A DNA stretch of 63,884 nucleotides, filler included, from Thraustochytrium aureum (Eukaryota), in the NCBI GenBank assembly GCA_012862495.1. It is 6 parts of 5 records of this genome, joined end to end, with 100 filler letters (N's around TTAATTAATTAA, not from the genome) between each part and the next. Parts side by side here need not be neighbours in the genome. Positions count along the whole stretch, not along the records: positions 41,596 to 48,689 come from BLSG01000022.1; 5 more parts are not named here. One strand, written 5' to 3'. The notes beneath the pieces are model-generated. The model did no database searches. It was not told where the DNA came from and was given only the letters and a program-made list of their open reading frames with translations. Positions 7,858 through 63,884 of this stretch are shown piece by piece. Each line of letters opens with the position of its first letter. Position 1 is the first letter of the stretch. The position numbers and the translations under genes were made by a program.

Positions 7858-9999
7858 CTACGCAAACTTGATGACCTGGAAGACCCAGACGGCCATGATG
7901 CAGGCAGCGAGAGACAGAATTGTGCGCTGCCCGAAACACATCTCCTCGCTGCGACGAGTTGTTGTCCTTGACTCGGCAGAGGACCGAATTGGCACCGGTC
8001 TGGGCAAGCCACCCCCCTCGCTCTCGCTTGGGGAAGTGGCCGCCCGCGAGGGAACCGGGGGGCCGTTCAGTTTGATGCTCACATCTTGCAAAGTGAGCTC
8101 AGAAAGGTCGACGTCGAGGCCTGGGACGACGACCCGCGCCCGAGCCCCGCTCGCCCCCTCCTCGTCGTCCGTCAAGAAACCCTCGGCGCTGTTTTGCTTG
8201 CCAAGACGCGCAAGCTCAACCGAGCTGCTGCGCCCCGCGCCACGTCCGAGCGGGCTGGGGAAGCCGGAAAGGTCGTCCTCGAACATCCCGGCGTCCCCAA
8301 AATCGAGGTCGTCGGTTGCAACCTTCTTGCGTCCACCCGCCGCGTTGCTCTCCATGAGCTCCGTGTAAAGCGAAGGACGAAACAGGAGCGCCTGGTCCAG
8401 TTCCCCCCCTCTGCCGTCCGATCCAGCCGCAACATACGTTGTCGTGCGGGCAAACACCGCGCTGAGAAGAAAGAGCACCGCGGACCACACCCAAAAGCTC
8501 ACTGCAGCAAAGTGCAGGAAGTTGAGCGACGTAAACGCCCCAAAGTAGTGGACCTCGAACGCGTCCTCAAGGATCTCTAGAACAAAACGCAAGAGCCCCG
8601 ACATCAAGCCCAACGAGAGGGTCCAATTCCCTGCGCGCCGGTTGGGCCGTCTCGACAGCATGCCCCAGAGGTAGAGTGCGAGGATTGGCGGCGCCAAGTA
8701 TGACGGCGGCTTCTGGATGATGATAAACAGGCTCTTGCCCAGAAGGTGCATCGCAGGCAGCCACAGCAAGCTAAGAAGGGCCATGACCACCACGGTGACC
8801 CTGCCAACCAGCACGAGGCGCTTCTCTGACGAGTCCGGGTACAGCTCGCGCCAGATGTTGAGCGAGAAGAGCGTCGCGCAAGAGTTGAACGTGCTCGCCA
8901 GCGCCGACATGAGCGACGAGAGCATGCTCGCCACAATAATGCCTCTTGCGTTCTTGGGGATCACATTGAGCACGAGCCAGGGATACGAGTGGTCGTAGTC
9001 GAACGCTTTGACCTCATCTGGACTGAGACGCTGGTTGATGATCACCCTGGCGCAAAGCCCAGGCACCACCATCATGACGAAAGGAAGGAACTTTAAGGAG
9101 GCGGCGACGACGCAGCCGAGCTGTCCGTGCGCGACGTTGCGCGCTGCCAGAGCACGCTGGACAATGACCTGGTCGATGCACCAGTACCAAAGCGCTATGG
9201 CTGGGAACCCAAACGCATATCCGGTCCACGGGTAGAGGTCGTCTGATGGGGGCCGGAAGAAGTGCAGAAAGTCGTCGCCGATGCGGAGGTCCTCGTCCAC
9301 CGTCTCGAGCGTGAGGTTGTGGAGGGCCGCGGAGAGCCCGTCCCAGCCATCCACCTCGGCGAGGGTGTATGCAACGACGAGGACGCCCCCGAGGAGGAGA
9401 ACGACGGTCTGGAGGGTCTCTGTGTAAATGACTGCCTCGAGGCCGCCTAGGACGGTGTACACTGCGGTGAAGGCGACGAGGAGGATGACAGCCAGCCACT
9501 TGTTGACGTGGATGAGCTGGACGAGGATGATCTGTCCAGCGAAGAGGGTCGCGCTCACGCGGGAGAACACGTAGACGATCAGAGAGATGCCCACGATGAG
9601 CGTGCGGCAGTAGGCGCTGTACCGCTTCTCCAAGTAGTCTGGCGTGGTCTGCACTTGGGCGTTCAAGTAAATTGGCAGAAAGAAGAGCCCCGTGCAGAGA
9701 ACGATGGGGATGGCGCCGACCTCGTACCAGCCAACCGCAACGCCAGCTTTGGCAGCGCTGCCGGCGAGTCCGATAAAGTGCTCTGAGCCGATGTTGGAGG
9801 CGAACAAGGACGCAGCCACAGCCCACCAGCTCACGCTCCGCTCCGCGAGAAAGTACGAGTCTGTGCTGGAGGCGTTCGTCTGCGCTGCCTGGTGCCGCCC
9901 AACGAGCACCGAAACCAGCCCAAGCATGCAGAAGTACGCCGCGAGTACGACTAGGTCAACTGTGCCGAGCGCCGACTCGTCTTGTCCACCGCCCTCCAT
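7858..9999 (-). CDS. Sodium:solute symporter (SSS/SLC5, SGLT/SMIT-like)
   Basis: ATG 9999 (MEGGGQ); motifs YFLAERS, ASLFASNIGSEHFIGLAG, YTVLGGLEAVIYTE, WYWCIDQVIVQRALAA; about 14 TM segments. Confidence 0.95.
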   Translation of the reverse strand: MEGGGQDESALGTVDLVVLAAYFCMLGLVSVLVGRHQAAQTNASSTDSYFLAERSVSWWAVAASLFASNIGSEHFIGLAGSAAKAGVAVGWYEVGAIPIVLCTGLFFLPIYLNAQVQTTPDYLEKRYSAYCRTLIVGISLIVYVFSRVSATLFAGQIILVQLIHVNKWLAVILLVAFTAVYTVLGGLEAVIYTETLQTVVLLLGGVLVVAYTLAEVDGWDGLSAALHNLTLETVDEDLRIGDDFLHFFRPPSDDLYPWTGYAFGFPAIALWYWCIDQVIVQRALAARNVAHGQLGCVVAASLKFLPFVMMVVPGLCARVIINQRLSPDEVKAFDYDHSYPWLVLNVIPKNARGIIVASMLSSLMSALASTFNSCATLFSLNIWRELYPDSSEKRLVLVGRVTVVVMALLSLLWLPAMHLLGKSLFIIIQKPPSYLAPPILALYLWGMLSRRPNRRAGNWTLSLGLMSGLLRFVLEILEDAFEVHYFGAFTSLNFLHFAAVSFWVWSAVLFLLSAVFARTTTYVAAGSDGRGGELDQALLFRPSLYTELMESNAAGGRKKVATDDLDFGDAGMFEDDLSGFPSPLGRGAGRSSSVELARLGKQNSAEGFLTDDEEGASGARARVVVPGLDVDLSELTLQDVSIKLNGPPVPSRAATSPSESEGGGLPRPVPIRSSAESRTTTRRSEEMCFGQRTILSLAACIMAVWVFQVIKFA

Positions 10000-14539: not shown

Positions 14540-16238
14540 ACTCGAAGATGTTTTGGATCGACATCTTTGCCGTGAACCAGCACTACTCGACGACAAGAAG
14601 CTGCACGCGCGCGCAGAAAAGGAGCGCGCCGAGGACCTCGCTGGATTTGAGAATGTCGTGGCCAAGTCGCAAGAGGGGATGATTCTTTTCCTCAACCCGT
14701 GGAACGACCCTGGGAACAACATTCTTGGGCGCGCCTGGTGCTGGCTCGAGATCAGCCTGGCCCAATTGCACAAGAGAGAGATCAAGCTGGCCATGACGCG
14801 AAAGGAAGCCGCCGAGCTGCGCGAGGTGAGCAACGTCTACCTCAAGAAGGAGGAGGAATGGTCCCCCACCGAGCGCGTGCAGGGTGACCTTGTCAACAAG
14901 ATGCTGCGCGACATCGATGTGCAGCGCAGCGTGTGCCGGATCCCCGAGGACCAGGAGCGCATCCACAAGGAAATCGAGGAGCGCGTCGGGTTTCAAAAGG
15001 CCAACAGCGACATTATTCTCCAGGTCGCTTCCCTCATCATGACCACGGCAGACCAAATGCTCTCCTCGCACTCGGGCAACGGGCCGGAGAACCTGTACGA
15101 GGCCATGCTAAAGTTCTTTCCGAAGCGAGAGAAAGCTGCAAACAACAACAAGCTCGTTCGGGCGTACACCATCATGGGCTGGAAGACCAAAGCCGAAGCG
15201 CTCTGCAAGCGCGCGATTAAGGACCAGCGGGAGCTCATTCGCGAAGCGCAGGACACGGCGACGAAGGACGAGATTCGCAAGGAGATGGCGGCAAACCTCA
15301 ACAGCCTGGGGCGCCTGTACTGCGACTCGCGCGACGAAGGCGCTCTCGAGAAGGCGCTCGTTCTTCTAAATGAAGCGCTCGATATCCGCGGCCCCAACGA
15401 CGGCGAGGTTCTCTACAACATTGGCCGCGCCATCGTCCTCCACTGGGAGCTGTTCGACTCCAGAGCGGCGCGGAGTAGGCGCGACCGTGACGAAGACCTC
15501 ACGATGGCCCGGGAGAAACTGGAGCGGTCCAAAGCCGTGCAAGAGGGCAGCAAGAATGGCAAGACAATGGGCTCGCTTGGCGCTTGCTGCGTCTTCCTCG
15601 CGCGTGTGATCGAGTTGCAGGCCGCCGATGACGACAACAACGCCGATGACGAAACGCTTGACCAAGTCGAGAGCCTCTTCCGTCGCGGGATCGCGATACA
15701 ACAAAAGTGTTTTGGCGAGGCCGACCCGCGCGTTTTTTTCACCAAGGCCGACTTTGCGCGCATGTACGCGGAGCGCAAGCTCTTCGATGATGCCTGGGAC
15801 CTGCTTTGCGAGGCCTACGAAGGTCTGGTGCCAGCGGTGCAGCTCAAACTGGTCGACCCGGTCAAACTGCTCGAGTGCCTCGAGACGATGCTCAGGGTCG
15901 CTCTGGCGCACCAGCCACTCCGCCACGAGGGAGAGGCAGTGATCCAGTCCACGATGGGGCTCATCGATTGGCTCGAGGAGAAGCGGCCTCACATCCTCGA
16001 CCTGGACGACACGATGCACTTGGTGAACAAGCTGCACAAGCTCATCTTTTCGCATTCTTCCAAGTTTGACCTCGCGCTGGACTTTGTGGCGGCGCAGGAG
16101 GACCCCGCACCGGCGGCGGCTGCCGCCCAGCGCGACGATTCGCAAGCGTCGCGCCTGGGGAAGCGGGCGAGGATCAAGAAGGGGAGGAAAAGGGAGGAGG
16201 CCGGCTCGCAGCAGCGCGGCGCGGATGGGCCCGACTCG
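14540..16238 (+). CDS. TIR/HET-like N-terminal domain + TPR protein (protist family often annotated kinesin-light-chain/nephrocystin-3-like); partial
   Basis: FWIDIFAVNQH (different frame, indel near 14585), then FENVV...LFLNPWNDP...LGRAWCWLEI...IDVQRSVCRIPEDQERIHKEIEERVGF, followed by TPRs (AANLNSLGRLY, EVLYNIGRA). No stop before the gap. Confidence 0.75.
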
Positions 16239-16543
16239 ANNNNNNNNNNNNNNNNNNNNNNNNNNNNNNNNNNNNNNNNNNNNNNNNNNNNNNNNNNNNN
16301 NNNNNNNNNNNNNNNNNNNNNNNNNNNNNNNNNNNNNNNNNNNNNNNNNNNNNNNNNNNNNNNNNNNNNNNNNNNNNNNNNNNNNNNNNNNNNNNNNNNN
16401 NNNNNNNNNNNNNNNNNNNNNNNNNNNNNNNNNNNNNNNNNNNNNNNNNNNNNNNNNNNNNNNNNNNNNNNNNNNNNNNNNNNNNNNNNNNNNNNNNNNN
16501 NNNNNNNNNNNNNNNNNNNNNNNNNNNNNNNNNNNNNNNNNNN

Positions 16544-17594
16544 GGCCCTCCTGTCGATGCCCATGGAGACTATGCTCGACGCGTTGCCGAGCTTGATTGC
16601 AGACGTGATCATTTGCGACGCCCCGTACAACATCGGGATCAACCAGGTGTGGGATTCGCTGGGCCACGAGGCCTTTGTGGCGCAGGTGAGCAGGTGGGCG
16701 CGGCTGATGGTCCGCTGCCTGGCGCCCAACGGCGTTGGCTTCGCCTTCACCTCTGCTCACTACATGAGCTACTGGGTCAACGCTCTTCGGACCGCGCGGG
16801 GTGCGCCCGCGCTGAACGAGACCTCGACAAGCCCTGCGCCGCCGGTCATCGTCGAGTCGGCCGTCTGGTTCAAGCCGGACGCGCAGTGGCGGCACGAGTT
16901 TGTCCGCGACAACGTCGACAACCTCGCCTTTTCAAGCGAGTTTCGCAACCAACCGCAGCTGGTCAAGGACAGCTTTGAGGTCATGCTAATTTTTCGCCGC
17001 TCCGAAGCAGCCGCGACAGAGTTTACCGCTATTGCCGATCGCCTGCTGGCCCGAGACGCCGCCAACGTGTTTAAAATCGGCAAATGCAAGGGTGCAGAGC
17101 GCCTCCAGGGCGAGAGCTGGCACCCGGCGCAAAAGCCGCTTTCGCTGATGCGCGCCCTCGTCGCGGTTTGCAACGAGCGGAGCCGCCAGCCCTCGAAAGA
17201 CATGCTCGTCCTCGAGCCGTTTGCCGGGACAAGCTCTGGCCTGGTTGCTGCCGCGGAGGCGGGCGTTCCGTCAATTGGCTGCGAAAACGAGCAGCACTGG
17301 GTCGACGTCTCGCAGCGTCGTTTCCTGAGCCTTGACGCTGCCAAGTTGGCATGGCGCGATGGCGAGACGCCGAGGTCGGGCCGGTTCGGTCGGATCAAGT
17401 CATTTGCAGCAAAGTCTGGCGCGTGGCTCAAGTCGGCCGTCGCAGCGGCTTCAAGCGGCGGCGGCGAGACGCCCGCGAACAGCACGGAGCAAGAGCTGCG
17501 CAAGAAGCTGGACGAGCAGGCCAAGAAGCTCGAAGAGCAGACCAAGCTCATTCGCAGTCTTCAAGAGTCCCTCGCAAAGGCGCGGGCGGCTTAG
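16544..17594 (+). CDS. Beta-class amino-DNA methyltransferase (N6_N4_Mtase; N4-cytosine/N6-adenine) with C-terminal coiled coil
   Basis: Motif IV-like DVIICDAPYNIG (16617), RCLAPNG, VWFKP, SFEVMLIF, WHPAQKPLSLM (17121), motif I VLEPFAGTSSGLVAA (17214), SIGCE. Catalytic motif before the SAM motif is the beta-class order. Confidence 0.88.
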
Positions 17595-18727
17595 GCCGCT
17601 TGGAGCGGTGGCAGCCAGGCTGCCTGTTTGGGCCTGCATGCAAGCAAGCACAGGATGTTGATCTAGACTAGGAAATGACGTATCGCGCTTTTTTTTGGGT
17701 GGCAAGGCCGGCCACGGTACCTGCGAGTCGAACCCGAGCGTTGCGTGTTGCTCCTCTCGCCCCCGCGTCTCTAGAGCTAGACGAGCGAGCACGTCGTGGG
17801 CGCCAGCGCCGACTCTTGCCGCGCCGACGCCGTCCCCGGCGGCTGGGGTGAACGCCAGCGCGTGAAAGTAGAGGTACATCTGGAACGAGGCGACCCCGCA
17901 GAGCAAGTGCCAGGCCGCGTGGCCCTGGAGAAGCGAGTCCGGGTCGCAAACGATCCCGCGAATGTCGAGCGTCCAGATGGCGAAGGCGGCGCCAAAAGTG
18001 AGCGTGGCCATGGCAAGCGGGCGCAAAGGGGCCCGCTCCGCACGGCCGGGGATGACGGCGCGAGCGCGGGCCTCACACCCCATGAGAACCACCAGTAGGA
18101 CCAGGAAGATGTACCTGCGCGTGTCTGGAACGGCGAGACAGAGCCATCCCAGGGCGGCGTTACCGTGACGTACTCTGCCACAAAATAGGAGACAGCTCGT
18201 TCCATTCGCCAGCCGCCACGAACCCGCAAGGAGGCCAAGGAAAAGGGTGCCGGCGCGGAGGCCAACAGGTACATAGCGGCGTTGTCAATCCACTGCCCAT
18301 GGAGCGTCAAGCTTGCGTGATACCAGCCAGAGCCAGCGCCAAGGATGACGTTGCTGAGGCCGAACAGAACGCCAAAGACCACCCCGAGGCGGTCGTCATG
18401 GATCGCGCGCTTTCGAGTCGACGTCATCTGCTGTTGGACGCACTCGACGAGGATAACCGCCCCCGTGACGGTGAAGATGAGGTTGCTGAACGTGTTGGCG
18501 GGCTGCAAAACGAGGGTGTGCTTGCGCGGCCGTTCGCAAAAGCAGCCTCGCGGCGCGGCAAGACACGTCGCGGGCGTCCAGGCATCCCAGGAGGCATCGA
18601 TTGTGGCCAGCAGCGTAAAGAACCCGGCCGTGGTAATAAACACGGACAGCCCAAGCGTCGCCACGGGCAGCGACACCCCGTCCCGCAAAACAGCCAGCTT
18701 GCCCGCCGCCCCGCCCAACATGAACAT
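17451..18727 (-). CDS. Alkaline ceramidase-like CREST-superfamily membrane hydrolase (one indel near 18162; 3' end uncertain)
   Basis: FCERP...QPANTFSNLIF, GSGWYHASLTLHGQWID; after the frame switch IWTLD...QGHAAWHLLCG (SxxxH/D/HxxWH Zn-binding signature). Confidence 0.85.
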
Positions 18728-31373: not shown

Positions 31374-32546
31374 CTAATAAAAGAGCCAGGGCTGCCCAGC
31401 CTGTGGGCTCGAGCATACCTTTTCGCTGGGTGGTGAAGAACCCTCACATTCGTCACCAGTCCGCCCTCCGGTGCAAGGGTTTGTGCGTCGCATGCGGTGC
31501 TCGTAGTGGTCGGTCTCCTTGTTTTTGTCTCGGTTGCCCTGGTTGGCTTGGCCGCAGCGCGTGTGTTGGCTCTTGGCGCACAGTCGCGTCTCGCTAATCA
31601 GGTTCCGGGAAAGCGGGATCATGCTTCGGCCCTCCACCCGCGAGGGGACGGGCACGCCGATGGCCTCCATCACGGTGGGGTAGATGTCGACCATCTCGGT
31701 CATCTGCCAGCGCTTTTGGCCGCGGCGCTCCTGCGGCATGCCCGGGATGGCGATCACCATCGGGGTCCTGACGGCCGAGGCGCCTCGGTGGTCGAGTTTT
31801 TGCAGACCTGGCCCTGGTCGCCGTGGCGCCACCCGTGGTCCGAGAAGGCAACGAACGCCGTGTTCCTCTGGCCCATGAGCCAGTCCTCATAGCTGACGCA
31901 GGCAAAGTACATCTCGCGATGGCCGCGGATCTCCTCCATGGTGAGCGGTTGGCCCGACCTCTGCACGCGGCAGTTGAAGTAGGGGAGGTTGTAGGGTGCC
32001 TCGAGAACCGGCGGCACGGGCACCTCCAGCGCCCAGGGCGGGTCCGGGTCGAACCTGTCCGCCGCGAGCCCGACTTGTACATGTCCTCGAAGTAGGTGGG
32101 CGCGCGGAGTGGCGAGTGGGGCACGTTGATGGCCCAGAAGATGGCAAAGGGCTTCCCAGTCTTCTCGTACTCGTGCTTTTCAACTCGGCGAGCTTCTCCA
32201 AGACCCACGCCTTGTTCACCTCGTCGCGGCAGTCGTATTCGCCGCTCGAGATTTTCATTTCGCGGAGCGTGGCCGGCGAGGGCCCGTCCCAGGCGTCCTT
32301 GTAGGAGGGGGCGCCCGGCGCCACGCCGGGCCCGCCTCTGCAGCGTGTCAACTTTGGGTACTCTGTGCCCCTTTTCCTCGACTTGCTCTGCGTTGATCTT
32401 GAGGATGGGGTCGGGGTCGGCCGGAGCGAAATCCTTCCGCCGCCCGCCGTCGAGGACGCGGCCGTCGTCTGATTTGTGCAAGACTTTGCCGACGGAGATG
32501 ACGTTGTAGCCCTGTTCGCTGAGGTAGTTCATCATGAGCAGGTTTT
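31374..32546 (-). pseudogene. Sulfatase (iduronate-2-/choline-sulfatase-like S1 family), disrupted; 5' part in gap
   Basis: GYNVISVGKVLH, KPFAIFWAINVPHSPLRAP, YFACVSYED, FSDHGWRHGDQG..CK, VRTPMVIAIPG, EMVDIYPTV...VEGRSM, spread over several frames. Confidence 0.85.
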
Positions 32547-43795: not shown

Positions 43796-45001
43796 ATGAT
43801 GGCGGCTGTTGGCGCTCGCGAGACTGGCGACGGCGGCGAGGAGGACGAGCTGGGTATTCTGATGGCGAGCGGAAGGCGGCATGCGGAGAATAGGGCCGCG
43901 TCTGGGCCGAACAGGGCGGGACGCAGGAGCTCGACTTGGGACGATCCGCTAGCTGAGGTGGGCTGGCTTGTGTCGAGGGTCTCGGCGCTCTCCCTCGCGC
44001 TTGTCGCTGCCACAGCGATATGGCTTGTGATCGCGTCGGCGCCGATGCTGCGCGCACGGGCGTCAAGGATCGAAAAGCGTGAACTCTCTGTCGCCAACCC
44101 GTCCTTCCCCAAGGCCGTCGACCTCCTGCCGCTCGGCGTTCGTGCCGCGCCTGCTTTACGCTTGGTCGAGCCTGGCGTGGAGCGCGTACGCTTGAGCTGG
44201 GATCAGAGCGCTGCTCAGACAAGCCTGCAAGCCGCCTATGGCGTTCACCTCGTTGGGTGTGGAACCCGGGCATCGACCGGGTTTCTGGGACGAGCCAAGG
44301 GGACGCCTGCAAAGGCAAGCCAGCTGCGCCATGCCTCCCACGGCATTGAGGCTGCGCTCCTGACGAGCCTTGGGGGAGCTATGTCGCGCTCGCCTTCTGT
44401 CCGCAAGGCCAAGCAGTAGTAAGTTGGGCTTGCAAGCAAACTACCGATGTTGGGCCCCGCGGTCTGCGCTGTGCTGACGCGCAACCGAAACGGGCCGCAG
44501 CACGCCGCTTCGTCGCTCGTTGGCGGCTGTCACCTGCTCGTTGCGCTCTTCCAGGATGTCGCGCTGGGCAGAAAGCTATGGCAGAGACGGTTGCGGTCGC
44601 ACAACTCTACTCGTGTTTCTGCGCGCATGGCTGCAGCGGCGCTTTTGCTGTTGTGCGCGCTGCTCTCCATTGCCAGAGGTGTGTTGACCGTGGGTCGTCT
44701 GCAGCTTGGGGCGTTCCCGCCACTCTCCGCGCTATCAGCAGTGTGGCTTGCCGCGGCCTGGGTTCGCCCTGGGGTTGCGCCCAGCGCGAGCGAGCACTGC
44801 CAGCTCGCGCGCCTTTCGCTTGCCGATCTGGCTGCTGCGAGCGCGCTGCTTTCGACGGCCGTCTTGTGGTCCGGTGCCACGCATGCTTACGAGCACTCGT
44901 CTGTCCTGGGGACGCATCAACTCTACGTGGTTTTCTCGGCGTCGTTCCTGGCGTTGCGGGGCGCATCACTGGAAGCCAAACTGCGGGCCTCGAAGCTGTA
45001 A
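43796..45001 (+). CDS. Hypothetical multi-pass membrane protein (two ORFs, probably one gene with an indel)
   Basis: Hydrophobic segments in ORFs 43790-44419 and 44447-45001; family not recognised. Confidence 0.45.
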
Positions 45002-45212
45002 ACAAACGCCGAGCAGTCTGGAGTTGTAGTAGGTACTCTACTCGACTACCAACCACGCGGAAATGTAAAAATGCACGAACATGTTGGCAACCGCTTCTCC
45101 TGGGGCGCGCTTGACTTGAACCTCCTACTGGAAGCTATGGGCGGGCGTGACGCAGCCACCCGCCTTCATTGTTCTCAAGCCCGACCTCCGCCGGCCGCGG
45201 CAACTCATCTGA

Positions 45213-48200
45213 CCCGGCCTGTACTCACAAGACAACGAATCGCCCGCCGAGACAAAGTCAAGGCCGGCGTCTCCGGCGCGCGAGCTGCTCGAAGTGACAT
45301 CGTGTGTAGATGAAGTGCCGGTGCTTCCAGCAAAGTGCGCGCATGTACCGCAAGTAGACCAAGTACCTACTACATACTCNNNNNNNNNNNNNNNNNNNNN
45401 NNNNNNNNNNNNNNNNNNNNNNNNNNNNNNNNNNNNNNNNNNNNNNNNNNNNNNNNNNNNNNNNNNNNNNNNNNNNNNNNNNNNNNNNNNNNNNNNNNNN
45501 NNNNNNNNNNNNNNNNNNNNNNNNNNNNNNNNNNNNNNNNNNNNNNNNNNNNNNNNNNNNNNNNNNNNNNNNNNNNNNNNNNNNNNNNNNNNNNNNNNNN
45601 NNNNNNNNNNNNNNNNNNNNNNNNNNNNNNNNNNNNNNNNNNNNNNNNNNNNNNNNNNNNNNNNNNNNNNNNNNNNNNNNNNNNNNNNNNNNNNNNNNNN
45701 NNNNNNNNNNNNNNNNNNNNNNNNNNNNNNNNNNNNNNNNNNNNNNNNNNNNNNNNNNNNNNNNNNNNNNNNNNNNNNNNNNNNNNNNNNNNNNNNNNNN
45801 NNCGCTGCGGCTGGAGCGCAGGGGGCTTCCGTGCGCGAGCTGGCCGCTGGGGACCTTGTCGTGCCGCCGGTCAGCGAGTGGGCGACCGTGGTGGATCGGC
45901 TCATGAACGAGACGCAGCCGTGGGGGGGCGATGAAATCTACGACGAAGACAACCTTCCTGGCACGGATGCTGGGTACGCCGACGTGGCGGAACTGGCGCG
46001 TCGCCATGTACCGCAACTGCTCCAGACTGGCGCCGTTGACTTTGTCTGCGTGTCCCGCACGAGATGGATTGGGCGGAGCCGCACGTTATCGAGACCGTGT
46101 TTGTCCTGGACGCACGCGGCGCTGCCATATACGTTGCAAACCTGCAGCCTGGCGCGGACATCGTTGAAGCAAAGTTCAGCCACAAAGCCAATGTCGGCGA
46201 GATTTTGGTGCCGTTCTCGTTCTGCAACAAGCACGGCTTGTGGGCTGGGAACGAGCTCCTGGCCGTGGACCCTGTGAGCTGGAACGCGACGAGCGAGGCC
46301 CTTTCCAAGCTGGAAGTCACAGAGGAGGAGTGCTCGTCAGGCGGCTCGCCCAGTCGCTTCGTGCTCGACGAAAAGGCCGTCCTCTCGTTCCGCTTGCTTG
46401 GAAGCACTTTCTTGGCCCTGTCCTCGGAGCTGGAGGAACCAGCATACCTCGAGCTCAACCTCGAGATAGCGCTAGAGTCTTTCATCGGGATCGGGTTCAA
46501 CACCAGGATGACGCCGACAGACATCGTTGCCTGCGCGCACTCCGGCGATCAAGTATGGTGCGACGACTTTTTTGCAATCGACCGTGTGGACGGCCCGCAA
46601 CTTGACACTGCCCTTGGCGGCAAATCCAATGTCAAGATGGTCAACACCACCTCCGTCCCGTCTGGGCTTGTCAAGGGCAGGACTATGTCGATCGTCGCGC
46701 GAAAAGACCTTCGATTCCCAGACCCGCGCTTCGACGCCGTTTTGCAAACCGGGAAAGGCGAAATCCAGCCTCTTATCTTTGCACTGGGCAAGTTGAATCC
46801 GGGCAGGTCAGAGTCCCTCGAAGCGGGCGATTTCCTCTTCTACCACGGCCTTGACACGCGTGGATACCTCACCGCCGCGCTGAGGGACAGCGGAGCGATC
46901 GGGTCGTGCTCGACTTCAACAGAGCGGGATGATCGAGACCTGCAGATTATGCACGGCGTATTGATGTACTTGCTTTGGGCCATCAACATCACAATTGGCG
47001 CCATTTTGGCGCGCTACTGGCGCAAATCGACGTGGTGGCTGGGTGCCCACCGCGCTCTCCAGAGCATCGGCACGATCATAACGATCCCGGTATTTTACCT
47101 CACGTTCAAGTGGGAGAAACAAACCTCGTCGCCGCACCGAATCATTGGCAAAGTGATTGTGTATACGTCTTGGTTTCAGGCCGCGATGGGTACCATTATG
47201 TACCGCTCCTCCCAGTTCTCCAAACAGTGCCTCAGGGAGGTGGCCGCAGGCGAGACCTCGCTTTCCGACAAGGCGCGCGCCGAGCTCTGCAACATCGGAA
47301 CCTTTGGCGACAACGGCAACATGGAACTCTTTCGCAACTACTACAAGCATCGCGACAGCCTGGATCCGACCGTTCGCGGCGAGATCGACCTCTACCTCCG
47401 CCAGTTTTTCGAGCGCCTTGCCATTCCCTGCGTGCCTGCTTCCTGGGTGCTCCACGTCGCCGTTCACTTTCGCCAGCGGTTTGCGCGCCCCGTGCACCGT
47501 CTCCTCGGGAGGGTGCTGCCCATGGTGGCATTCGTGCAGATATTCTTCGGGGTTGCAATTATCGAGGCAAACCAAGTCGTGAACGACATGTTTATTGGGT
47601 GGACGGTGCTGATTGTCGTTTTGGTGGTCTACAAGGAGCTCGAGCTGCAGCTCGACCTGCCGCACACCTTGTCTGGCAAAGCCGCCTGGCTGCGCCGTGT
47701 TCTCTCGGACGCGACTTGCTGCCGTTGCTTTCGCAAGCATGGCTCGAAGGCAAAGCAGAGGATGGAACTCTCGAACGCGCCAAGCGTGGCGGAAGCAGCT
47801 CTGTCACAGCGTTCACCAAGCGCAGGTGCTGAGCGGGAGCGGCGCCTGACGCCCCGCTTGCATGCAGCGAACCGCAGCGCTTCAGCAGAATCTGTCGTCG
47901 TGGATGATCGCAGCAGTTCAGCCGAAGACGGGCAAGATTCGACGCACGCCAGCTCGAGTGCGGGGATTGCTCGGGCTGGCAAGAAACTGAGCGAGGAAAC
48001 GCGCCGTGCTCGTCTCGGTGCCAGCCCAAGTGGCCTCCCGCCGATGCAGTCGGGCTTGCCGAGCGAATTGTTGCTGGCGCCGTTGCCGGGGGGCGTCGAG
48101 CTTGACAGCAGTGCTGTTTCTCCGATGCTTGAATCTGGCGCCGACCTCGAGTCCCCAGCAACATCGAACGGATCGTTATCGCATCCTCAGAGCCCAGCGG

Positions 48201-48265: not shown

Positions 48266-48689
48266 AAACGGAGTGCCATGAAGAGGACGGAGGTGCGCAT
48301 GTACTCTACCTACAATTCAACTGAACAACCCCTGAACAGGCACTGTTTTCCTTTCCTATGATCCTGCCAACGACGATTCATTCAAGTCGGCGTTGTAGAT
48401 GTTGTACTCTACCTTCTTCTCCTTGTGCTGAGCTGGTACAACAGGTACAACACAAGAGACGGACGGCGCGACCTCGAAGAGTTGAATGACATCAAAGTTC
48501 CTGCAAAATCGTCGGCAGCGCCAAATGGCGACTCGCTGCGCCGTCGTCGAAAAGCTGCTAAATGATTTGGCGTGAATCGTTGTGTTTTTTGATTTGAGAA
48601 TGGAAAACCTACCTCCAAGAGCCCTGGCAAAGACGACCCGTCCGCAAACCCATCTCCGGGAGCAAGTTCAACGCAAAGTAGATGATAAA

Positions 48690-53772: not shown

Positions 53773-56392
53773 TCAGGTCATGTCGACCGACTCGCTTGGC
53801 GCCGCCTGAGAGATTTCGCCAGTCGCAGTGTGGAGCCAGAACGACTCGCCCGTCTCTCGGTGAACGTACTCCTCCCAAGGCCCGCGCTCTCCGATCTTGA
53901 ACCCATTTGATATGATAGTTTGCTGTGTCAAGCCGCCGAGCGCGCTGGCCGATGGCGGCGTCGACGGGACTTTGGGCGAGCTGGGACTCTCGGCGGCCCT
54001 CTTGGGATCCTGGGCTCGGCTGTGCTGCTGCAGCTTGGGGCTGCCCTTGGGGCTCGCACCCAATGCCTCCCGATTCAGTGGCGACGCTGCTCCTTCCGCT
54101 TCCGCTGCGCCCCCCGCTTCGGCTGCGCCAACAAGACTATCAGCCTCAGGAAAGGCGGAGAGCGGGCGTATCGTAGACCGCGCCGCCTTGCCGCTCCCCA
54201 GCGCGCTGGTGCTGGCACGGAACAGGACCCTTTCCTCTCGCAAGCCCGGGACCTCTGTGGGCGCGCTGGTGCCTCCACGCTCACTAACGGCACGCCGCGG
54301 CCAAGCCGCCCCGGAGGACATCCCGGGCAAGCCGTCCGCTTCCTGGTATTGGCCCCCCATCCCGCCAGTGCTTGTCCTGAAGATGCCCTTCGGCGGACCC
54401 GACGCAAAAGGCGCCGACGCGGTCTCGTCGTCATAGCGTGAGAAGCTTGTGCGGTTTGAGAACGCTCCGTCGTCCCGAAAGGTAACGCGCGGGGCACTAT
54501 CAGTGTTTGGGCGAGAGTAAAAGTCGTACAGGTCCCGCTCCGCGACATGAGGAGCGTACGAGGTCTTTGACGCCATTGTGGGCTTGGCATTAAACCGCAT
54601 CGAGACACGCTGGGCGTTACCAGAGACGTTGATGACCTCGCGCTGGTCGAGGAAACCCGTGTTGCCTGTGGCAGCAGTTTGACCCGTATTCATCGATGTC
54701 GAAGGCCCGTCGCCATCGCCTGGGCCGCCGGCGTAGCTGCTGCCACCAGCTTGCGATCGCTTTTTCTCCGTCGCGGAGCGCAAGATTTCTTCGCGCGAGA
54801 GATGAAACCGCTCGTACTTGGCCTGGAGCAAGACGAGAAGGCCCACAATAGTACACCAGAACACGCTAAACGTAAACACGAGAATGCGGACCGATTCGGC
54901 GGCCGATTCTGTGACAGCGAGGATGATGTTGAAGACGCCGAACACGAGGATGTTGTTGGTCACGATGAAGATCTGCTTGGACTCGCCGAGCACGCTGCCA
55001 AGGTCCTTGACGCGGCACGCGAAAAAGGCGGTCGCGAGGACGAGAATGACCACGTACACGTATGAGAGGGCGAGAAACACGGCGCCGAGTCCGTCTGATT
55101 CGCACACGTTCGCTTCACGGACGGAGCTGTAGCGCATTACGGGCCCCTCCACAAACGACCAGAGGAGGAGAAGCACGACATCGATGAAGACCAAGGAGGG
55201 CTATCCCCTTAAGGAGGTACTGGTTGGTGATGTGAGACGTCTTGGCCACGGGCGCGTTGAACACGCGCCACACGCGCCAAACCTTGAGCAGCATCACCGA
55301 TAGAGTGAACGTGAAGGCGAGGTCGAACCACCATTTGCGAACTATGCACAGCGCCACGGCCTGGGGCTCGAACGCGCTCGGGAAGATGGACGTGTTGACC
55401 AGCAGAGCGCCGACGCAAATCAGCTTCAGGAACAGCGCCTGGCTGAGCTGGATCACGGGCTTGAACCGGTGAATATGGATGAACACCAGCGCACTTATCG
55501 CGAGCACGATGCCGAGAATGGCCACGTTGGTGGACAAAATGGCGACCCAGCCTATAGCGCTGTCCGAGCCTTGCGTTGGCGCGGCAGCGGGCGCCCCCGT
55601 CGGCTTTGGCGCTGTGGCAACCAGGAGGCAGCTGTTACTTGTCCACTCGCACCCATCCGCAGCTCCGCATTCCGACGCGTTGGCCTGACGGAGGCACCAA
55701 AGGAGCGGGTCGAGGGTGGGGCTCGCTGTCGGCAATGGAGAGGGGCGCATCGAAGGTGACGCTGACGGCGAATCGGTTGGGACGGGCGTCGCCGTTGGCA
55801 CAGGAGCTGGCGTTGGCGATGCAGATGGCCTGCGCGAAGGCGATCTCGACGGCGAGCGGCTCGGCCCCACGCTGGGGCTCCGAGTTGGGGAAAGAGTCGG
55901 AAAGCGCGTCGTCGGAAAGCGCGTCGGCGCGCGCGTCGGCGAGCGAGTGGTCGGGGATGCCGACGGCCGTCGCGAGGGCGAGCGCGACGGGCCGGTGGTT
56001 GGCGCGAGAGTTGGCTCGACGACGTTGATGTCGCAATCCTTTCGAATTGTTGGAAGAGGGTCGCTGCCAAAAAACTCGTTCGAGCACAGGAATCGCGTGC
56101 CCTGAGGGATGAACGTCGACCAGACGTATCTGTTTCTTATCCCGTATCGAATGTAGCCATCTCGTGCCATCACGCACTCGACGCGCTCAACGCAGCGCTC
56201 GCCATTCTCCAAGAGAAAACTCTCGTACCGAAGCGTCTCGGCATACTCTGGAGTTCCAATGATTTGCAGCTGCCGGGGCGGTGGGCTCGCGGCCACGGCG
56301 GCGGCGGCAAGGACTGCCGCAAATAGCCACGTTAGGGTGCGCTGGCGTGGCGCGCTGGCCCTCGCGGCGCGGCGCCGCGTTGTGACTGCCAT
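53773..56392 (-). CDS. Class C (GABA-B-like, 7tm_3) GPCR with a small Cys ectodomain, PT/PS stalk and C-terminal WW-like domain (indel near 55195)
   Basis: Signal peptide; IRYG...CSNEFFGSDP...KDC; SPT repeats; PVIQLSQALFLKLIC, LLKVWRVWRVF, ESKQI; tail WEEYVHRETGESFWLHTATGEIS. Confidence 0.85.
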
Positions 56393-59811: not shown

Positions 59812-62800
59812 ACAGCCAATCGAACCTGTTATCTGCACATTAAACATATAAAAAGAACAAAATGAAGCTGTTAACCCTTGTCTGTCAATTGAATAAGGTG
59901 TAGGTTTCCGTTCACGTAAATTATACTGTGAAGTGCTTGCTCAGGCACACTTCGCTTCGAATGCGGCATTGAAGACGAGATGGGACACCATAAGCGCTTC
60001 CGGTTTGCTTTGATGTATGTTCGATGGGATAGAAGTTTGCTTTTTCCCCATGCAGGCGCCAGTATTCATGCCCACCCAAATATATCTTGGGAATTTGACG
60101 GCAAACCAAGCACTATCGACTTTGAGCAAAATCTGCTCCGCTCGTGTCATCTCAGGGCTAGCGAGGCGACTCATACGTATAGACCAATGTATAAGCTCGG
60201 CGTATGACGAGTTTGAGAACCTGTATGCAAAGGCCTGCAGCGCCACACAACCTCGCGTCGGGGCTTAAAATTTTNNNNNNNNNNNNNNNNNNNNNNNNNN
60301 NNNNNNNNNNNNNNNNNNNNNNNNNNNNNNNNNNNNNNNNNNNNGAATTTTGGTGTTCCCGGTTTGCAGACGATGCAAATTCTAAATGGTCGACTCTGGC
60401 GCAATGAGCAGCTGCACATAGTCACAGGATAACCTAATGGGTTGTTTGCCGAGAGATGGCTGAGCAATGTCTTAGTGTTAGCTCGTAATTTTTGCTCGCG
60501 GCTCTAGATGGTGGGCTCGTGACTCTGTGTGTTGAGCACCTTCGTTGCGAACGGTTTAGCGAGGTCCAGCTTGCCATCTTTTTTGCTCATTCTCATGAGC
60601 TGCCCGGCCTCCTCCATAGCCGCAAAGTTACGCTGCTCCTTGAGCCGTTGCATGGTCAATTTAAGCCAGTCGTTGACTGTCTTCGTGGTTATTTGGCCCT
60701 GGTGGAAAACCCATGCGCGCACTGCGGCTTCAGGGTGAATTTTCGTGGGACCAGGAGAGGGCGGGGAAGAAACACCAAGGCTAACCTGCTCTGTAGCCAG
60801 ATACGGTGGTGAATGTGAGGTGGACGAGAGAGGAACGGCACGTGGAACATGCGGATTGACGTCGAGCTGGTCGTTCAAAATCGGTGAACTCACTCCCCGG
60901 ATGGCAACCCCAGCATGGTACCAGTTTGGCGTCCGTCCCCGGGAGGCGGTAGGGGTATTGGCTTGGAGGACTTGCTCAACAATTGAGCTTTCGAGCGCAG
61001 AACTGTCACACCCGCGTGCGCTTGGCAGTTTGAACGCCGACTTGGCAATTGAAACATCATCCAGTGGGATGCCGAATTCGTCGCGCTCGGCCTTGTCGAT
61101 GGCCGTCACTATCTCTAGGCTTTTTGCTGTGTCCACTCGAATTTGGGCAAGAGCTTGGCGTCGATCCTCCTCGCTCATAGACTCAAGGGGAATGCTCGCG
61201 CTCTTCTTCGTAAGCAGCTCCGAAATCGTGCCCTCTTCTGCCGCAAGCTTGCGTTTCGATGTCTCTTCCCACGTTTGCAGTTTGGCCTTCCTCCTTTCCG
61301 CGTCTTCGTGGGCCTCGATCTTGCGTTTTTTAAACTCCAGATCGAGCTCGACTTGGAGCTCCACTATGCGCCTTTTGATCTCGCTGTCAAGCTCCAACCT
61401 TCGCTGCTCGAACTCTCTGTCGATCATGAGATTTAGCTTGTCCACATCGCGGTCTACCTTGGCGCCCTCCTCCGTCACAGTTTTGGCAATCCGCTCTCGG
61501 TATTTCGGGAACTGGTCCTTGTACCACAACGCTGTAGCGCGAATCTCGCGACGCGTCTCGCGGCACTCCTCTAGAGTTCCGGACGACTTGATGACCGCGG
61601 CTCTGCCGAGGTTTGGGCCGTGTGCGTCGATCCTCTCGCTAATTGACGTCCAGTTCGAATATTGCGTGCTTGCAGCACCGGAGGCGCCCTCGTCGCAGCT
61701 GTCGCGAGACCCTGGAGGTTGAGGCGGCGGGTCGTGAGGCACCAGATCGATCGATGAGACACGCTGAACCTCGCTTAGGGCTCGCGCGTATCTGAAAGGA
61801 CGCTCTGTGGAGTTGAACTGAAGCGTGTTTTGCTTGAGAACGCCGTCATTGAGATGAATGATGCGAGTAAATGGCACAATTCCGGTCGCACGCATGGATT
61901 TCCTCAGGACAGCACTTGACATGGCGTCGACGAGCGCCGCGCCAGCGGCTTTGAGCGTATTTGCCCTGTCTAGTTTCTTCCCTTCCCGCACAAGCGCCCT
62001 TTTGAGCGACTTGAACTTGGACGAGAAAGGGCCAAAAAGAGCCACATCCGGGCCCTGCATAACGCTGGTGCAATTTGGCAGCCACATTGACACGATAATC
62101 CCGAGACTGTCCAGAGAATTGACGAACTGGGGCGACAGTCTGCTGGGGTGAAAGTCGAGGAAAAGTACCACCTTGGTTTTGGGGTCGTCAGGCGAGAGGT
62201 CTGGGAACTTGACCTTGAGGATACCGTTGACGATCAGGTCGCAAATGTTCGATTGTTCAACGCTACCGTTGGGCGAGACAGCCACAATGGGCTCGTGATT
62301 TGGGACGCCAAGATCGCGCATATCTGGCGCGTGAGTTTTTAACTCGTCGAGCAGTCGCTTCGGCACCGCGCGAGTCGAGCTCTTGGACGGAAACACCCAG
62401 CCGATTGGAAGAGCGTCCAATGCTGCCGTATGCCCAACGATCATCGTGATGTGCTTCTCGTATTGCTTTGGTGCGACGACTCGACGTGCTTTTGCGACCT
62501 CGCGCGACTTGGAGTCGAACCCAATTCCTTTCAGCGCAGGCTGCCGGCCGCGGCGCAAGAGTGCCTTGCCGTCGTGATCAGCAATGCTCGTCTCATCCAA
62601 GACGCATACACGGTTTGGGAACTTCCAAATCAACTCTGGCACTTCTTCCCCTGAATCGCGGCTCCAGTCAGGATTGATCTCTGCAACGCCCTCTCTCGCG
62701 AACCTGCGTTTGTTCGAGTCGTACCAAAACTCTATGTTGTCCGCGATATACCACCGCGCCATCTCAGCCTTCATGCCTCGACCACGCGCCATCCCAATTC

Positions 62801-63884
62801 GTGGGTCGCGCTGCTCAGCTCGCTTCATAAAGCCAAGGTACCACTGTTGCGATAGACCTTTTTGCATACGCTCTTGCAAGACTGGGTCCTCGTCCGTGAC
62901 GAACGTTCTGGCGGCTTTAATGAGCGTGACGTCATCCAACCCAGCATTGATCTCAAGCAACTTCACCATGTATTCGCGCAAAACTCGCTCTTGATCATCA
63001 TTGAGGATGGACCTGCGTCCTGTGCCCGAGGATGTCCTTCCCGTCGCCCGCCTGAAGATTGTCATGGGCGTGATGTTGGTGCCTGTATCCTGCAAAGTCC
63101 GTGCCACCTTGGCGTTTGTGCCAAAGGACTCGCGGAGGAATTGGACGAGTGCGTTGGACTCGATGGCCGTCCGCGCTTGCTTGATTTTGACACGGTTTGC
63201 CTCATTCCGCTGAAGGCGGGATTGAAGGTCTTCTTTCTTGCGCTCGTATTGCTCCTCCTCGTCCTTCCTGTCCTCCAACGTCGTCAGGAGATGCTCGAGC
63301 TTGTTCCGGAGCCTCTTGTTCTTTTGTTGTCGCCCGTCCAGCGCTTTCAGCCCGTCACCAGCCACTTGCGCCGCGAGAAGCAGCTTGACCGCAAAGTCGA
63401 TACAGGCGTCGTTTGCCTCTTTCTTGCACAAGTTGGGCTTGTTCTTCTTGAGCCAGGCGAAACGGCTGCGCACGACCAGGTGCAAGTGCGACCTGGTCTG
63501 GGATTCCCCTGCCCGAGCAACATACGCAAACCCGTCGCTCGCCACAGACGCGACGACCCTCTCGTAGCCGTTATGAATCACCAGCGCATCGCGCAGTGCT
63601 TCCTCCACACGCTCCAGCACCTTCTTGATGGTGTCCTCGGCTGCTTCCTGCGCCTTTGCCATGGCTGCGGTTCTCTGACTCCGGGGTCTGCAACCCAAGC
63701 TCTCTGGTCTGGACGTCGGTCAGGCTGGGTTAAGGGTTGCCCTCTATTTTCTAGGGTTTTGTATTGACAGGTCCTCTATATTCAGACACAAAAGAATGTC
63801 AAAATGTGAACAGCTTTCCCCAAGGTGGCAGGCCTATTTACAAGGTGTAAAATTTGCGAGGATAACAGGTTCGATTGGCTGTGG
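59812..63884 (-). mobile_element. pogo-superfamily DNA transposon occupying the whole scaffold
   Basis: Perfect 22-bp inverted repeats at 59812-59833 (ACAGCCAATCGAACCTGTTATC) and 63861-63882 around a DDD transposase; visibly lower GC than host genes. Confidence 0.9.
60504..63662 (-). CDS. pogo/Fot1-like transposase (CENP-B/Tc5 HTH + DDE-1, DD35D), uninterrupted, about 1052 aa
   Basis: GRRSILNDDQERVL...SQQWYLGFMKR; VLDETS; LFLDFHPSR; LPNCTSVMQGPDVALFGPF, with 35 residues between the second and third Asp. Confidence 0.9.
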   Translation of the reverse strand: MAKAQEAAEDTIKKVLERVEEALRDALVIHNGYERVVASVASDGFAYVARAGESQTRSHLHLVVRSRFAWLKKNKPNLCKKEANDACIDFAVKLLLAAQVAGDGLKALDGRQQKNKRLRNKLEHLLTTLEDRKDEEEQYERKKEDLQSRLQRNEANRVKIKQARTAIESNALVQFLRESFGTNAKVARTLQDTGTNITPMTIFRRATGRTSSGTGRRSILNDDQERVLREYMVKLLEINAGLDDVTLIKAARTFVTDEDPVLQERMQKGLSQQWYLGFMKRAEQRDPRIGMARGRGMKAEMARWYIADNIEFWYDSNKRRFAREGVAEINPDWSRDSGEEVPELIWKFPNRVCVLDETSIADHDGKALLRRGRQPALKGIGFDSKSREVAKARRVVAPKQYEKHITMIVGHTAALDALPIGWVFPSKSSTRAVPKRLLDELKTHAPDMRDLGVPNHEPIVAVSPNGSVEQSNICDLIVNGILKVKFPDLSPDDPKTKVVLFLDFHPSRLSPQFVNSLDSLGIIVSMWLPNCTSVMQGPDVALFGPFSSKFKSLKRALVREGKKLDRANTLKAAGAALVDAMSSAVLRKSMRATGIVPFTRIIHLNDGVLKQNTLQFNSTERPFRYARALSEVQRVSSIDLVPHDPPPQPPGSRDSCDEGASGAASTQYSNWTSISERIDAHGPNLGRAAVIKSSGTLEECRETRREIRATALWYKDQFPKYRERIAKTVTEEGAKVDRDVDKLNLMIDREFEQRRLELDSEIKRRIVELQVELDLEFKKRKIEAHEDAERRKAKLQTWEETSKRKLAAEEGTISELLTKKSASIPLESMSEEDRRQALAQIRVDTAKSLEIVTAIDKAERDEFGIPLDDVSIAKSAFKLPSARGCDSSALESSIVEQVLQANTPTASRGRTPNWYHAGVAIRGVSSPILNDQLDVNPHVPRAVPLSSTSHSPPYLATEQVSLGVSSPPSPGPTKIHPEAAVRAWVFHQGQITTKTVNDWLKLTMQRLKEQRNFAAMEEAGQLMRMSKKDGKLDLAKPFATKVLNTQSHEPTI

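What the first reader, a model, noticed from the sequence alone, without database searches (positions are those of the whole stretch)
45930..47650. Superoxide reductase-DOMON-cytochrome b561 fusion: a candidate transmembrane electron wire to an extracytosolic SOR
Seen: once one indel near 46040-46055 is corrected, the N-terminal region reads ARRHVPQL...LRVPHEMDWAEPHVIETV...FCNKHGLW. That is the full 4-His/1-Cys iron ligand set of superoxide reductase/desulfoferrodoxin (HVP, HxM, HxI, CNxHGLW); the ORF track splits it. It continues in frame into a DOMON domain with both heme ligands (Met 46508, His 46844) and a b561 with all four His. Known: SORs are normally small soluble enzymes of anaerobes, reduced by rubredoxin; DOMON-b561 (FRRS1/CYBDOM) proteins pass electrons from a cytosolic donor to a DOMON heme on the non-cytosolic side. 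Inference: one polypeptide forms the chain donor -> two b561 hemes -> DOMON heme -> non-heme Fe, reducing superoxide to H2O2 (or reducing iron) at the cell surface or in a lumen. I know of no characterised protein like this but cannot confirm novelty. The Glu/Lys normally just before the first His are replaced (ARRH), so the chemistry may differ.
Basis: partly seen in the sequence, partly recalled or inferred. Interest (0 to 1): 0.9.

Follow-up and report, generated by a model that had tools for sequence, protein, structure and literature searches.

The report
Membrane-wired superoxide reductase in aerobic protists
This is a real, conserved protist gene that joins the iron-binding fold of superoxide reductase, an enzyme known mainly from oxygen-avoiding microbes, to a haem-protein module of the kind that carries electrons across membranes, so it likely lets an oxygen-breathing cell use its own internal electrons to remove superoxide outside the cytoplasm, an arrangement I found described nowhere.

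Summary
Observation confirmed. The frameshift is a missing base in this assembly. All 4 runs that cover the site (2 studies) carry one extra T behind 46044, which restores one frame from ARRHVP to the stop at 48265. The fusion is a conserved family: 12 SOR-DOMON-b561 relatives, best 35-39% identical, two from the labyrinthulomycete Mucochytrium. All five SOR iron ligands and both DOMON haem ligands are invariant, and the four b561 histidines are kept. Most relatives start with a signal-peptide-like segment. A model of a homologue matches SOR (Z 11.5), the CDH-type haem domain (Z 14.7) and cytochrome b561 (Z 11.2). Related diplonemid proteins add cytosolic cytochrome b5. Sister chassis carry a haem peroxidase outside and b5/b5-reductase inside, which supports an outward electron wire. 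SOR-like units also occur in tandem arrays and receptor-like proteins with no b561, so iron capture or sensing remain rivals. Iron binding, activity and location are untested. Ten paper searches found no description.

The parts
45804..46044 (+). N-terminal segment in frame 45804: possible end of a signal peptide (AAAGAQG), conserved helix (VPPVSEWATVV) and start of the SOR-like domain. The true start lies in the N-gap 45380-45802.
   Evidence: matches family HMM positions 18-78, E 1.1e-10
46005..46007 (+). First iron-ligand His (ARR-H-VP); Arg at -1, no Glu at -2
   Evidence: His in this column in 13 of 13 homologue rows
46044..46045 (+). One base missing in this assembly; independent runs carry an extra T here and have no frameshift
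   Evidence: 4 of 4 covering runs, 2 studies
45990..46270 (+). Superoxide-reductase-like domain; ligands His 46005, His 46058, His 46082, Cys 46223, His 46232
   Evidence: Pfam PF01880 E 0.0012 on the piece after the break; PDB 4bff E 1.6e-4; family profile vs 1y07 E 6.5e-13 with all five ligands in register; homologue model vs 4brv Z 11.5 and 4d7p Z 10.9, rmsd 1.8 A
46330..46900 (+). DOMON domain with haem ligands Met 46508 and His 46844
   Evidence: Pfam PF03351 E 0.0034; ligands 14 of 14 rows; homologue model vs 6jt6 Z 14.7 and 1d7b Z 14.5
46930..47650 (+). Cytochrome b561 domain: five membrane helices in the homologue model; His 46952, 47048, 47135, 47495
   Evidence: homologue model vs 4o6y Z 11.2, rmsd 3.3 A over 159 residues, and Dcytb 5zlg Z 11.1; profile vs 5zle E 3.8e-4 and 4o6y E 8.3e-4
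47210..47470 (+). Helical insertion on the predicted cytosolic side between b561 His3 and His4 (spacing 120 residues, against 36 in Arabidopsis CRR)
   Evidence: spacing 115-171 in 12 rows; helical at high pLDDT in the model; CRR His numbers from PMC10784552
47651..48265 (+). Poorly conserved, predicted disordered cytosolic tail; stop codon ends at 48265
   Evidence: pLDDT below 50 in the homologue's tail; contigs of the guessed-RNA runs end at 48312-48338

Best explanation
The gene encodes one protein with a superoxide-reductase-like domain that keeps all five iron ligands, a DOMON domain that keeps both haem ligands and a four-histidine cytochrome b561, and it likely works as a membrane-spanning superoxide reductase: electrons from a cytosolic donor would pass through three predicted haems to a predicted Fe(His)4Cys site outside the cytosol, which would reduce superoxide to hydrogen peroxide. 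Shown: the single frame, domain order, ligand conservation, and fold matches for a homologue. Inferred from homologues: signal peptide, with the SOR and DOMON domains on the non-cytosolic side. Inferred from plant CYBDOMs: outward electron flow through the haems. Inferred from fused relatives: the donor is ascorbate or cytochrome b5, the latter perhaps docking on the cytosolic insertion. Least certain: DOMON-to-iron transfer, and superoxide as the substrate. The wire would replace rubredoxin, which is a cytosolic carrier.
For: 1. Ligands: the five SOR ligands, Met/His and b561 His1-3 are invariant in the full-length alignment. His4 is in column in 12 of 14 rows, and the other two have it at normal spacing. 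113 of 136 SOR-like units among the hits keep H-H-H-C-H; many misses are cut fragments.
2. A basic residue stays before His1 in 98 of about 116 units, as in SORs, where it is linked to catalysis (recalled; title of ref. B98 in PMC3116461).
3. Folds: SOR Z 10-11.5, including the Glu-less Nanoarchaeum enzyme 6gq8 (Z 10.3); haem-binding CDH/PDH cytochrome Z 14.7; b561 Z 11.2.
4. Topology: 10 of 12 full-length relatives have a strong N-terminal hydrophobic stretch; one is weak and one lacks its start (hydropathy only).
5. Plant CYBDOMs move electrons from cytosolic ascorbate to outside acceptors (passages of PMC10784544; PMC10784552).
6. Chassis logic: P0009 and P0056 (diplonemids) are SOR(n)-DOMON-b561-cytochrome b5. 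Of 50 longer proteins I chose to scan, 13 carry a haem peroxidase in the slot before DOMON, 11 carry cytochrome b5 and 6 an FAD- or NAD-binding domain. So that slot holds redox enzymes and the inner end holds donors.
7. The order of redox potentials (b5 < b561/DOMON < SOR iron < superoxide/peroxide) would be downhill (recalled, no call).
Against: 1. No biochemistry exists; a conserved metal site does not name the substrate.
2. Only 14 of 45 proteins with SOR-like units have a four-His b561. About ten that look complete have none: single-helix or anchored arrays (P0018, P0064, P0070, P0168), multi-helix receptor-like proteins (P0014, P0024, P0127, P0031) and one 7tm_3 protein (P0167). The domain is therefore kept without a fused wire.
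3. Mucochytrium has six SOD sequences (PMC3986615), so it does not lack superoxide defence. SOR chemistry also costs electrons and gives more peroxide per superoxide than SOD (PMC3116461).
4. The window piece is under Pfam's cut-off for all three families. P0001, P0002, P0011 score far under the NCBIfam SOR cut-offs, and the window piece, P0003 and P0005 have no NCBIfam hit.
5. The Glu of the EKH motif is lost.
6. The useful model is of homologue P0001 (35-38% identical), without cofactors; I could not measure distances.
7. The window's own signal peptide is hidden by a gap.
Confidence: 0.5

Rival explanations
1. It is a ferric reductase with a built-in iron trap. The b561-DOMON part reduces outside Fe(III), and the His4-Cys site binds the resulting Fe(II) reversibly for hand-over to a transporter. 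The tandem arrays in other protists would be surface iron sponges.
For: All characterised CYBDOMs in the passages I read are ferric or cupric reductases. Arrays of up to 10 units, some only membrane-anchored, suit a scavenger. One sister chassis carries a multicopper oxidase (P0022). Superoxide and iron uptake are linked in plankton (PMC6247811).
Against: The basic residue before His1 and the CNxHG motif are kept as in catalytic SORs. A five-ligand site in a beta-sandwich would be expected to hold iron tightly rather than release it (inference). I found no iron-limitation expression data.
Confidence: 0.2
2. It is a redox sensor. The outside iron reports superoxide, O2, NO or iron, and the haem chain resets it or passes the state to the cytosolic insertion or tail.
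For: Relatives end in signalling domains: a class III cyclase in P0009, TIR-like tails in P0043, P0079 and P0024 (recognised by eye, no Pfam hit), and 7tm_3 in P0167. Their DOMON Met/His look retained even without b561 (read).
Against: The window's own family has no recognisable output domain; its tail is unconserved and predicted disordered.
Confidence: 0.15
3. The chemistry or direction differs. Superoxide reduces the DOMON haem, which feeds the iron (net dismutation) or sends electrons inward; or the protein makes peroxide on purpose, for a partner peroxidase or for breaking down polymers.
For: SOR plus DOMON without b561 recurs. The nearest DOMON structures are fungal cytochrome domains that feed oxidative enzymes (function recalled). 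Peroxidase-bearing chassis are the nearest tree neighbours (support 90). A bacterial b561 that oxidises superoxide is known (recalled).
Against: Fused b5 and b5-reductase domains in relatives point to outward flow. Measured CYBDOM currents are outward.
Confidence: 0.12
4. The locus is a pseudogene, or the SOR-like part is a chance or decayed sequence in front of an ordinary CYBDOM gene that starts at Met 46064.
For: The window has a frameshift, and the Pfam scores are below cut-off.
Against: 4 of 4 covering runs lack the frameshift. Variation is mostly synonymous. There are 12 full-length relatives, some from transcripts labelled complete.
Confidence: 0.03

Closest known systems
Superoxide reductase centre II (neelaredoxin/desulfoferrodoxin; PF01880; Treponema pallidum 1y07, Ignicoccus 4brv, Giardia 4d7p, Nanoarchaeum 6gq8)
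   Same: Beta-sandwich fold, four His and one Cys in the same order and register, CNxHGxW motif, basic residue before the first His.
   Different: Fused to a membrane haem module, apparently sent through the secretory pathway, found in aerobic eukaryotes, Glu lost, longer His2-His3 loop. The 78 bacterial ORFs recovered from 80 GTDB loci have a median of 127 aa; 72 have a desulforedoxin motif and only 1 exceeds 250 aa. None of the SORGOdb classes named in the passages I read has DOMON or b561.
CYBDOM / FRRS1-SDR2 ferric reductases (Arabidopsis CRR and HYP1)
   Same: Signal peptide (in homologues), DOMON with Met/His, five-helix b561 with four His; basic loop ARYxR/K before His2.
   Different: An extra N-terminal non-haem iron domain as a built-in acceptor, an insertion of about 84 residues before His4, and a long tail. 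The donor is untested.
TAT-exported bacterial SORs (SORGOdb TAT-SOR class) and tandem-SOR bacterial proteins found here (L037 Oligoflexales, P0045 Myxococcota)
   Same: SOR domains predicted to act outside the cytoplasm. L037 and P0045 are tandem, lack the Glu, and fall outside the desulfoferrodoxin clade together with the eukaryotic units.
   Different: No fused DOMON or b561. The tree does not resolve whether they are the source of the eukaryotic units.
Cellobiose/pyranose dehydrogenase cytochrome domains; DOMON-containing FRE reductases
   Same: A DOMON-type haem used as an electron shuttle outside the cell (PMC3591440).
   Different: CDH is soluble and flavin-fed (recalled); FREs use a different membrane domain. 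The FRE paper mentions no SOR (0 occurrences).

Membership tests
Superoxide reductase (PF01880) | Four His and one Cys iron ligands in order | tested here: met
   H-H-H-C-H in column for the window read through its break, and for 113 of 136 units among the hits; in register with 1y07
Superoxide reductase (PF01880) | SOR beta-sandwich fold | tested here: met
   Model of homologue P0001, residues 80-201, vs 4brv Z 11.5, rmsd 2.4 A over 110; 4d7p Z 10.9, rmsd 1.8 A over 87; next unrelated fold in that run Z 7.7. SoxZ scores Z 9.4 in the wide run.
Superoxide reductase (PF01880) | Curated profile cut-off | tested here: inconclusive
   Window piece without His1 scores 19.8 vs 22.2 bits. 6 of 12 full-length relatives pass Pfam. 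None of the 4 single-domain relatives tested, nor the window piece, reaches the TIGR00332 cut-off; only the tandem proteins P0018 and P0045 do, on summed scores.
Superoxide reductase (PF01880) | Glu-Lys before the first His (typical, not universal) | tested here: not met
   Window has Arg-Arg. Glu in 13 of about 116 units, against 75 of 79 bacterial units; Lys or Arg at -1 in 98. A Glu-less SOR is known (ref. title).
Superoxide reductase (PF01880) | Binds Fe(II) and reduces superoxide to H2O2 | not testable with these tools
   needs protein
CYBDOM / FRRS1 | DOMON with Met and His haem ligands | tested here: met
   14 of 14 rows; Z 14.7 to a haem-binding cytochrome domain
CYBDOM / FRRS1 | Five-helix b561 with four His | tested here: met
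   Z 11.2 to 4o6y over model residues 405-644 (a Z under 13 for helical bundles is weak alone, and the His pattern carries the case)
CYBDOM / FRRS1 | Signal peptide placing DOMON outside the cytosol | tested here: inconclusive
   Window start is in an N-gap; strong N-terminal hydrophobic stretch in 10 of 12 full-length relatives; no signal-peptide predictor available
CYBDOM / FRRS1 | Ascorbate-dependent trans-membrane electron transfer | not testable with these tools
   needs oocyte or yeast assay

The most novel reading that the evidence does not exclude
Aerobic protists have an undescribed reductive system for reactive oxygen at the cell surface. SOR-DOMON-b561 proteins spend cytosolic electrons to turn outside superoxide into peroxide, and sister peroxidase-DOMON-b561-b5-reductase proteins take the peroxide on to water. 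The same non-haem iron module has been multiplied up to tenfold and recruited into cyclase-, TIR-like- and GPCR-type receptors as a superoxide or iron sensor across labyrinthulomycetes, diplonemids and dinoflagellates.
Probability: 0.3. Interest if true: 0.93.

Novelty: new variant of a known kind. Interest (0 to 1): 0.82.

Why it matters
SORs are treated as small soluble enzymes of anaerobes and microaerophiles; SORGOdb held 3 eukaryotic genes among 325 (PMC3116461). A conserved, membrane-wired SOR-like domain facing out of the cytosol in aerobic protists would change that picture. Superoxide is unlikely to cross membranes and is made at the surface of many plankton (PMC6247811), so a named cell-surface enzyme that consumes it would make the biological sinks of seawater superoxide testable gene by gene. 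The protein also supplies what CYBDOMs lack, a built-in terminal acceptor, and so a single-chain model for three-haem-to-iron transfer. If the iron-trap or sensor reading wins, it is still a new use of the SOR fold.

Tried and rejected
Searches that found nothing:
- No whole genome is held for the window, so I could not ask whether the same organism has the peroxidase-type chassis, SODs or ascorbate synthesis.
- Word-based homologue search with the window piece: none. With alignments: 5 known hits and 3 hits. Only the exhaustive phmmer search found the family.
- Metagenome contig scan: 28 pattern matches, none a relative.
- No RNA holder is on record among the runs; X1, X2 and X4 are guesses. 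X7, X9 and X11 laid nothing on 44900-46500, and no contig filled the N-gap. X3 does not cover the indel.
- ESM Atlas: only CYBDOM clusters at scores of 0.83 or lower, leads only. The SOR-only query did not complete.
- Earlier findings: none by architecture words or by sequence.
- Papers: no description in searches. A review on SODs and SORs was not held. The 2007 DOMON survey (Iyer et al.) was seen only as a reference and may list such fusions. No supplements were read.

Models:
- Single-sequence fold of the window piece failed (pLDDT 35) and was not used.
- Complex prediction of the SOR domain on DOMON-b561 with haems and iron gave no verdict (score 0.00 twice, alignment not used). It is not counted either way.

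Readings considered and rejected:
- Intron or programmed frameshift at the break: no joints in any run, and the runs carry the extra base.
- Recent transfer from gut-type desulfoferrodoxins: the 25 sampled form their own branch (99*) in a quick tree of 102 of 217 units with 118 columns. The careful search did not finish and deeper forks are open.
Full report
Observation. The window is eukaryotic, intron-poor and gapped. Translation shows ARRHVPQL in frame 45804+3k and LRVPHEMDWAEPHVIETV...FCNKHGLW in frame 46040+3k. The second frame runs to a stop at 48265 through a DOMON and a b561. Ligand codons are His 46005, 46058, 46082, Cys 46223, His 46232; Met 46508, His 46844; His 46952, 47048, 47135, 47495. 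On the piece after the break Pfam gives Desulfoferrodox E 0.0012, DOMON 0.0034 and Cytochrom_B561 0.3, all under cut-off. PDB gives superoxide reductase 4bff at E 1.6e-4.

The frameshift is most likely an assembly error. Of 8 runs laid, 4 cover the site, and all 4 have one T put in behind 46044: X1, X2, X4 (guessed RNA, study P1) and X5 (guessed DNA, study P3, low depth). No run shows a joint. The guessed-RNA contigs end at 48312-48338 while the DNA run X3 goes on, a weak hint of a 3' end from one study. No single contig spans the gene: X1 covers 45841-46398 across the break, and two X2 contigs overlap at 46456-46484. The upstream piece matches a family profile built without the window at E 1.1e-10, and 19 of 24 changed core codons are synonymous. 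A neighbouring 7tm_3 gene is split in the same way. The start codon lies in the gap 45380-45802.

It is a family. phmmer over 1.84 billion representatives gave 209 hits at E <= 0.001, of which 150 were listed. Twelve have SOR-DOMON-b561 in one chain (P0001-7, P0011, P0012, P0015, P0043, P0079), the best at 35-39% identity. P0002 and P0005 are from the labyrinthulomycete Mucochytrium quahogii, and P0002 and P0003 are transcripts labelled complete. The window's host is likely a labyrinthulomycete, but that rests on these distant matches only. In the 14-row alignment, which includes the window piece and one cluster-mate, the SOR ligands, DOMON Met/His and b561 His1-3 are invariant. His4 is in column in 12 rows, after an insertion of about 84 residues; P0043 and P0079 lack the insertion. 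Ten of the 12 relatives have a strong N-terminal hydrophobic stretch.

Folds. The family profile aligns to Treponema pallidum SOR 1y07 at E 6.5e-13 with all five ligands in register. AlphaFold2 on P0001 with a 64-row alignment gave pLDDT 81 and pTM 0.66. Residues 80-201 match SORs (4brv Z 11.5; Giardia 4d7p Z 10.9, rmsd 1.8 A; Nanoarchaeum 6gq8 Z 10.3). Residues 223-399 match the haem domains of pyranose and cellobiose dehydrogenase (Z 14.7, 14.5). Residues 405-644 match cytochrome b561 4o6y (Z 11.2) and Dcytb (Z 11.1). No coordinates were returned, so ligand clustering and Fe-haem distance were not measured.

The wider picture. 45 proteins among the hits carry 136 SOR-like units, and 113 keep all five ligands in column. 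Lys or Arg precedes His1 in 98 of about 116 and Glu at -2 in only 13, against 75 of 79 in GTDB bacterial SOR units. Named members include diplonemids (Artemidia P0009: 10 units, DOMON, b561, cytochrome b5, class III cyclase; Lacrimia P0056; Flectonema P0093) and dinoflagellates (Biecheleria P0024, Gymnodinium P0127: 4-8 units, ephrin-like repeats, several membrane helices, DOMON in P0024). P0167 has 4 units, two DOMONs and a 7tm_3 domain. Fourteen of the 45 have a four-His b561 (13 by the pattern, plus P0056 by Pfam). About ten that look complete have none; most of the rest are fragments. In GTDB the best 80 loci gave 78 ORFs, nearly all ordinary desulfoferrodoxins of about 127 aa; one, L037, is a tandem three-unit protein with a lipoprotein-like start. 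A quick tree separates desulfoferrodoxins (99*) from the eukaryotic and tandem bacterial units but does not resolve an origin (102 of 217 units).

The chassis swaps its ends. I scanned 50 longer proteins, chosen mainly as hits over 500 aa with a DOMON or b561 match. Thirteen have an animal-type haem peroxidase before DOMON, one a multicopper oxidase, 11 a cytochrome b5 after the membrane part, and 6 an FAD- or NAD-binding domain. P0023 has the whole chain from peroxidase to b5 reductase. In a tree of DOMON plus the first b561 helices (78 rows), the SOR label needs 3 changes, at least 2 of them forced by starred branches. Peroxidase-bearing rows lie next to the window's clade at support 90. The slot before DOMON thus takes different redox enzymes and was filled with SOR probably more than once, which fits selection for an outward wire ending in a catalytic metal centre.

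Mechanism. Most likely (0.5): cytosolic ascorbate or cytochrome b5 passes electrons through two b561 haems and the DOMON haem to Fe(His)4Cys, which reduces superoxide to H2O2 outside the cytosol. The first half follows measured CYBDOM behaviour (passages of PMC10784544 and PMC10784552); the second half is inference from ligands and fold. Against it: many SOR arrays lack a wire, Mucochytrium has six SODs (passages of PMC3986615), and nothing is measured. Rivals are an iron trap on a ferric reductase (0.2), a redox sensor (0.15), other chemistry or direction (0.12) and artefact (0.03).

Membership and novelty. It meets the sequence and fold tests for a CYBDOM and for a SOR centre II domain, lacks the usual Glu, and is unproven as an enzyme. 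SORGOdb lists seven classes, seven predicted TAT-exported bacterial SORs and three eukaryotic genes; the passages I read name no DOMON or b561 fusion. Ten full-text searches found no paper on this architecture. For papers other than the six read in passages I saw only search listings. Subscription papers and supplements were not searched. Databases label members only by one domain. Unchecked earlier notes of this scan describe exported three-His SOR-like proteins with a small membrane partner in anaerobic bacteria, which would be a parallel design; I did not test them. Verdict: real, a new variant assembled from known parts, with a plausible new physiology; interest 0.82.

Noticed in passing
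P0023, P0025-28, P0050, P0054, P0058, P0066, P0074, P0085, P0112, P0117 (hits): A family of haem peroxidase-DOMON-b561 proteins, several with cytochrome b5 and b5-reductase domains: possibly a complete NADH-to-outside-peroxidase wire in one chain. One paper search listed no description.
   Followed up: partly
P0009, P0014, P0024, P0127, P0167: Receptor-like proteins whose ectodomains are 4-10 SOR-like units, most with DOMON, ending in a class III cyclase, multi-helix/TIR-like or 7tm_3 modules.
   Followed up: partly
P0018, P0064, P0070, P0166, P0168: Arrays of 4-9 SOR-like units, most ending in a single membrane helix or GPI-like tail, with no haem domain; P0166 is near-identical repeats and may be misassembled.
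   Followed up: partly
L037:490-1629 and P0045: Bacterial tandem SOR-like proteins (Oligoflexales, 3 units; Myxococcota, 4 units) with twin-arginine/lipoprotein-like starts. No obvious membrane haem partner among the L037 neighbours (ORFs listed, judged by eye).
   Followed up: partly
window 53773-56392 (-): 7tm_3 (class C GPCR-like) gene split between two frames at profile position 124/125; probably another assembly indel.
   Followed up: partly
window 14679-17594 (+): TPR-containing ORF running across an N-gap into an N6/N4 DNA methylase domain (E 2e-17), a bacterial-type methylase in a eukaryote; may be two genes.
   Followed up: no
window 1178-8368 (+): Very long protein of many EF-hand repeats, interrupted by N-gaps.
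   Followed up: no
window 60504-63662 (-): 1052-aa ORF with no Pfam hit at E 0.001 that looks by eye like a DDE/pogo-type transposase.
   Followed up: no
window 17777-18727 (-) and 31594-32535 (-): Ceramidase-like ORF (E 3e-10) and a sulfatase-looking ORF (no Pfam hit), both appearing to lose frame part-way.
   Followed up: no
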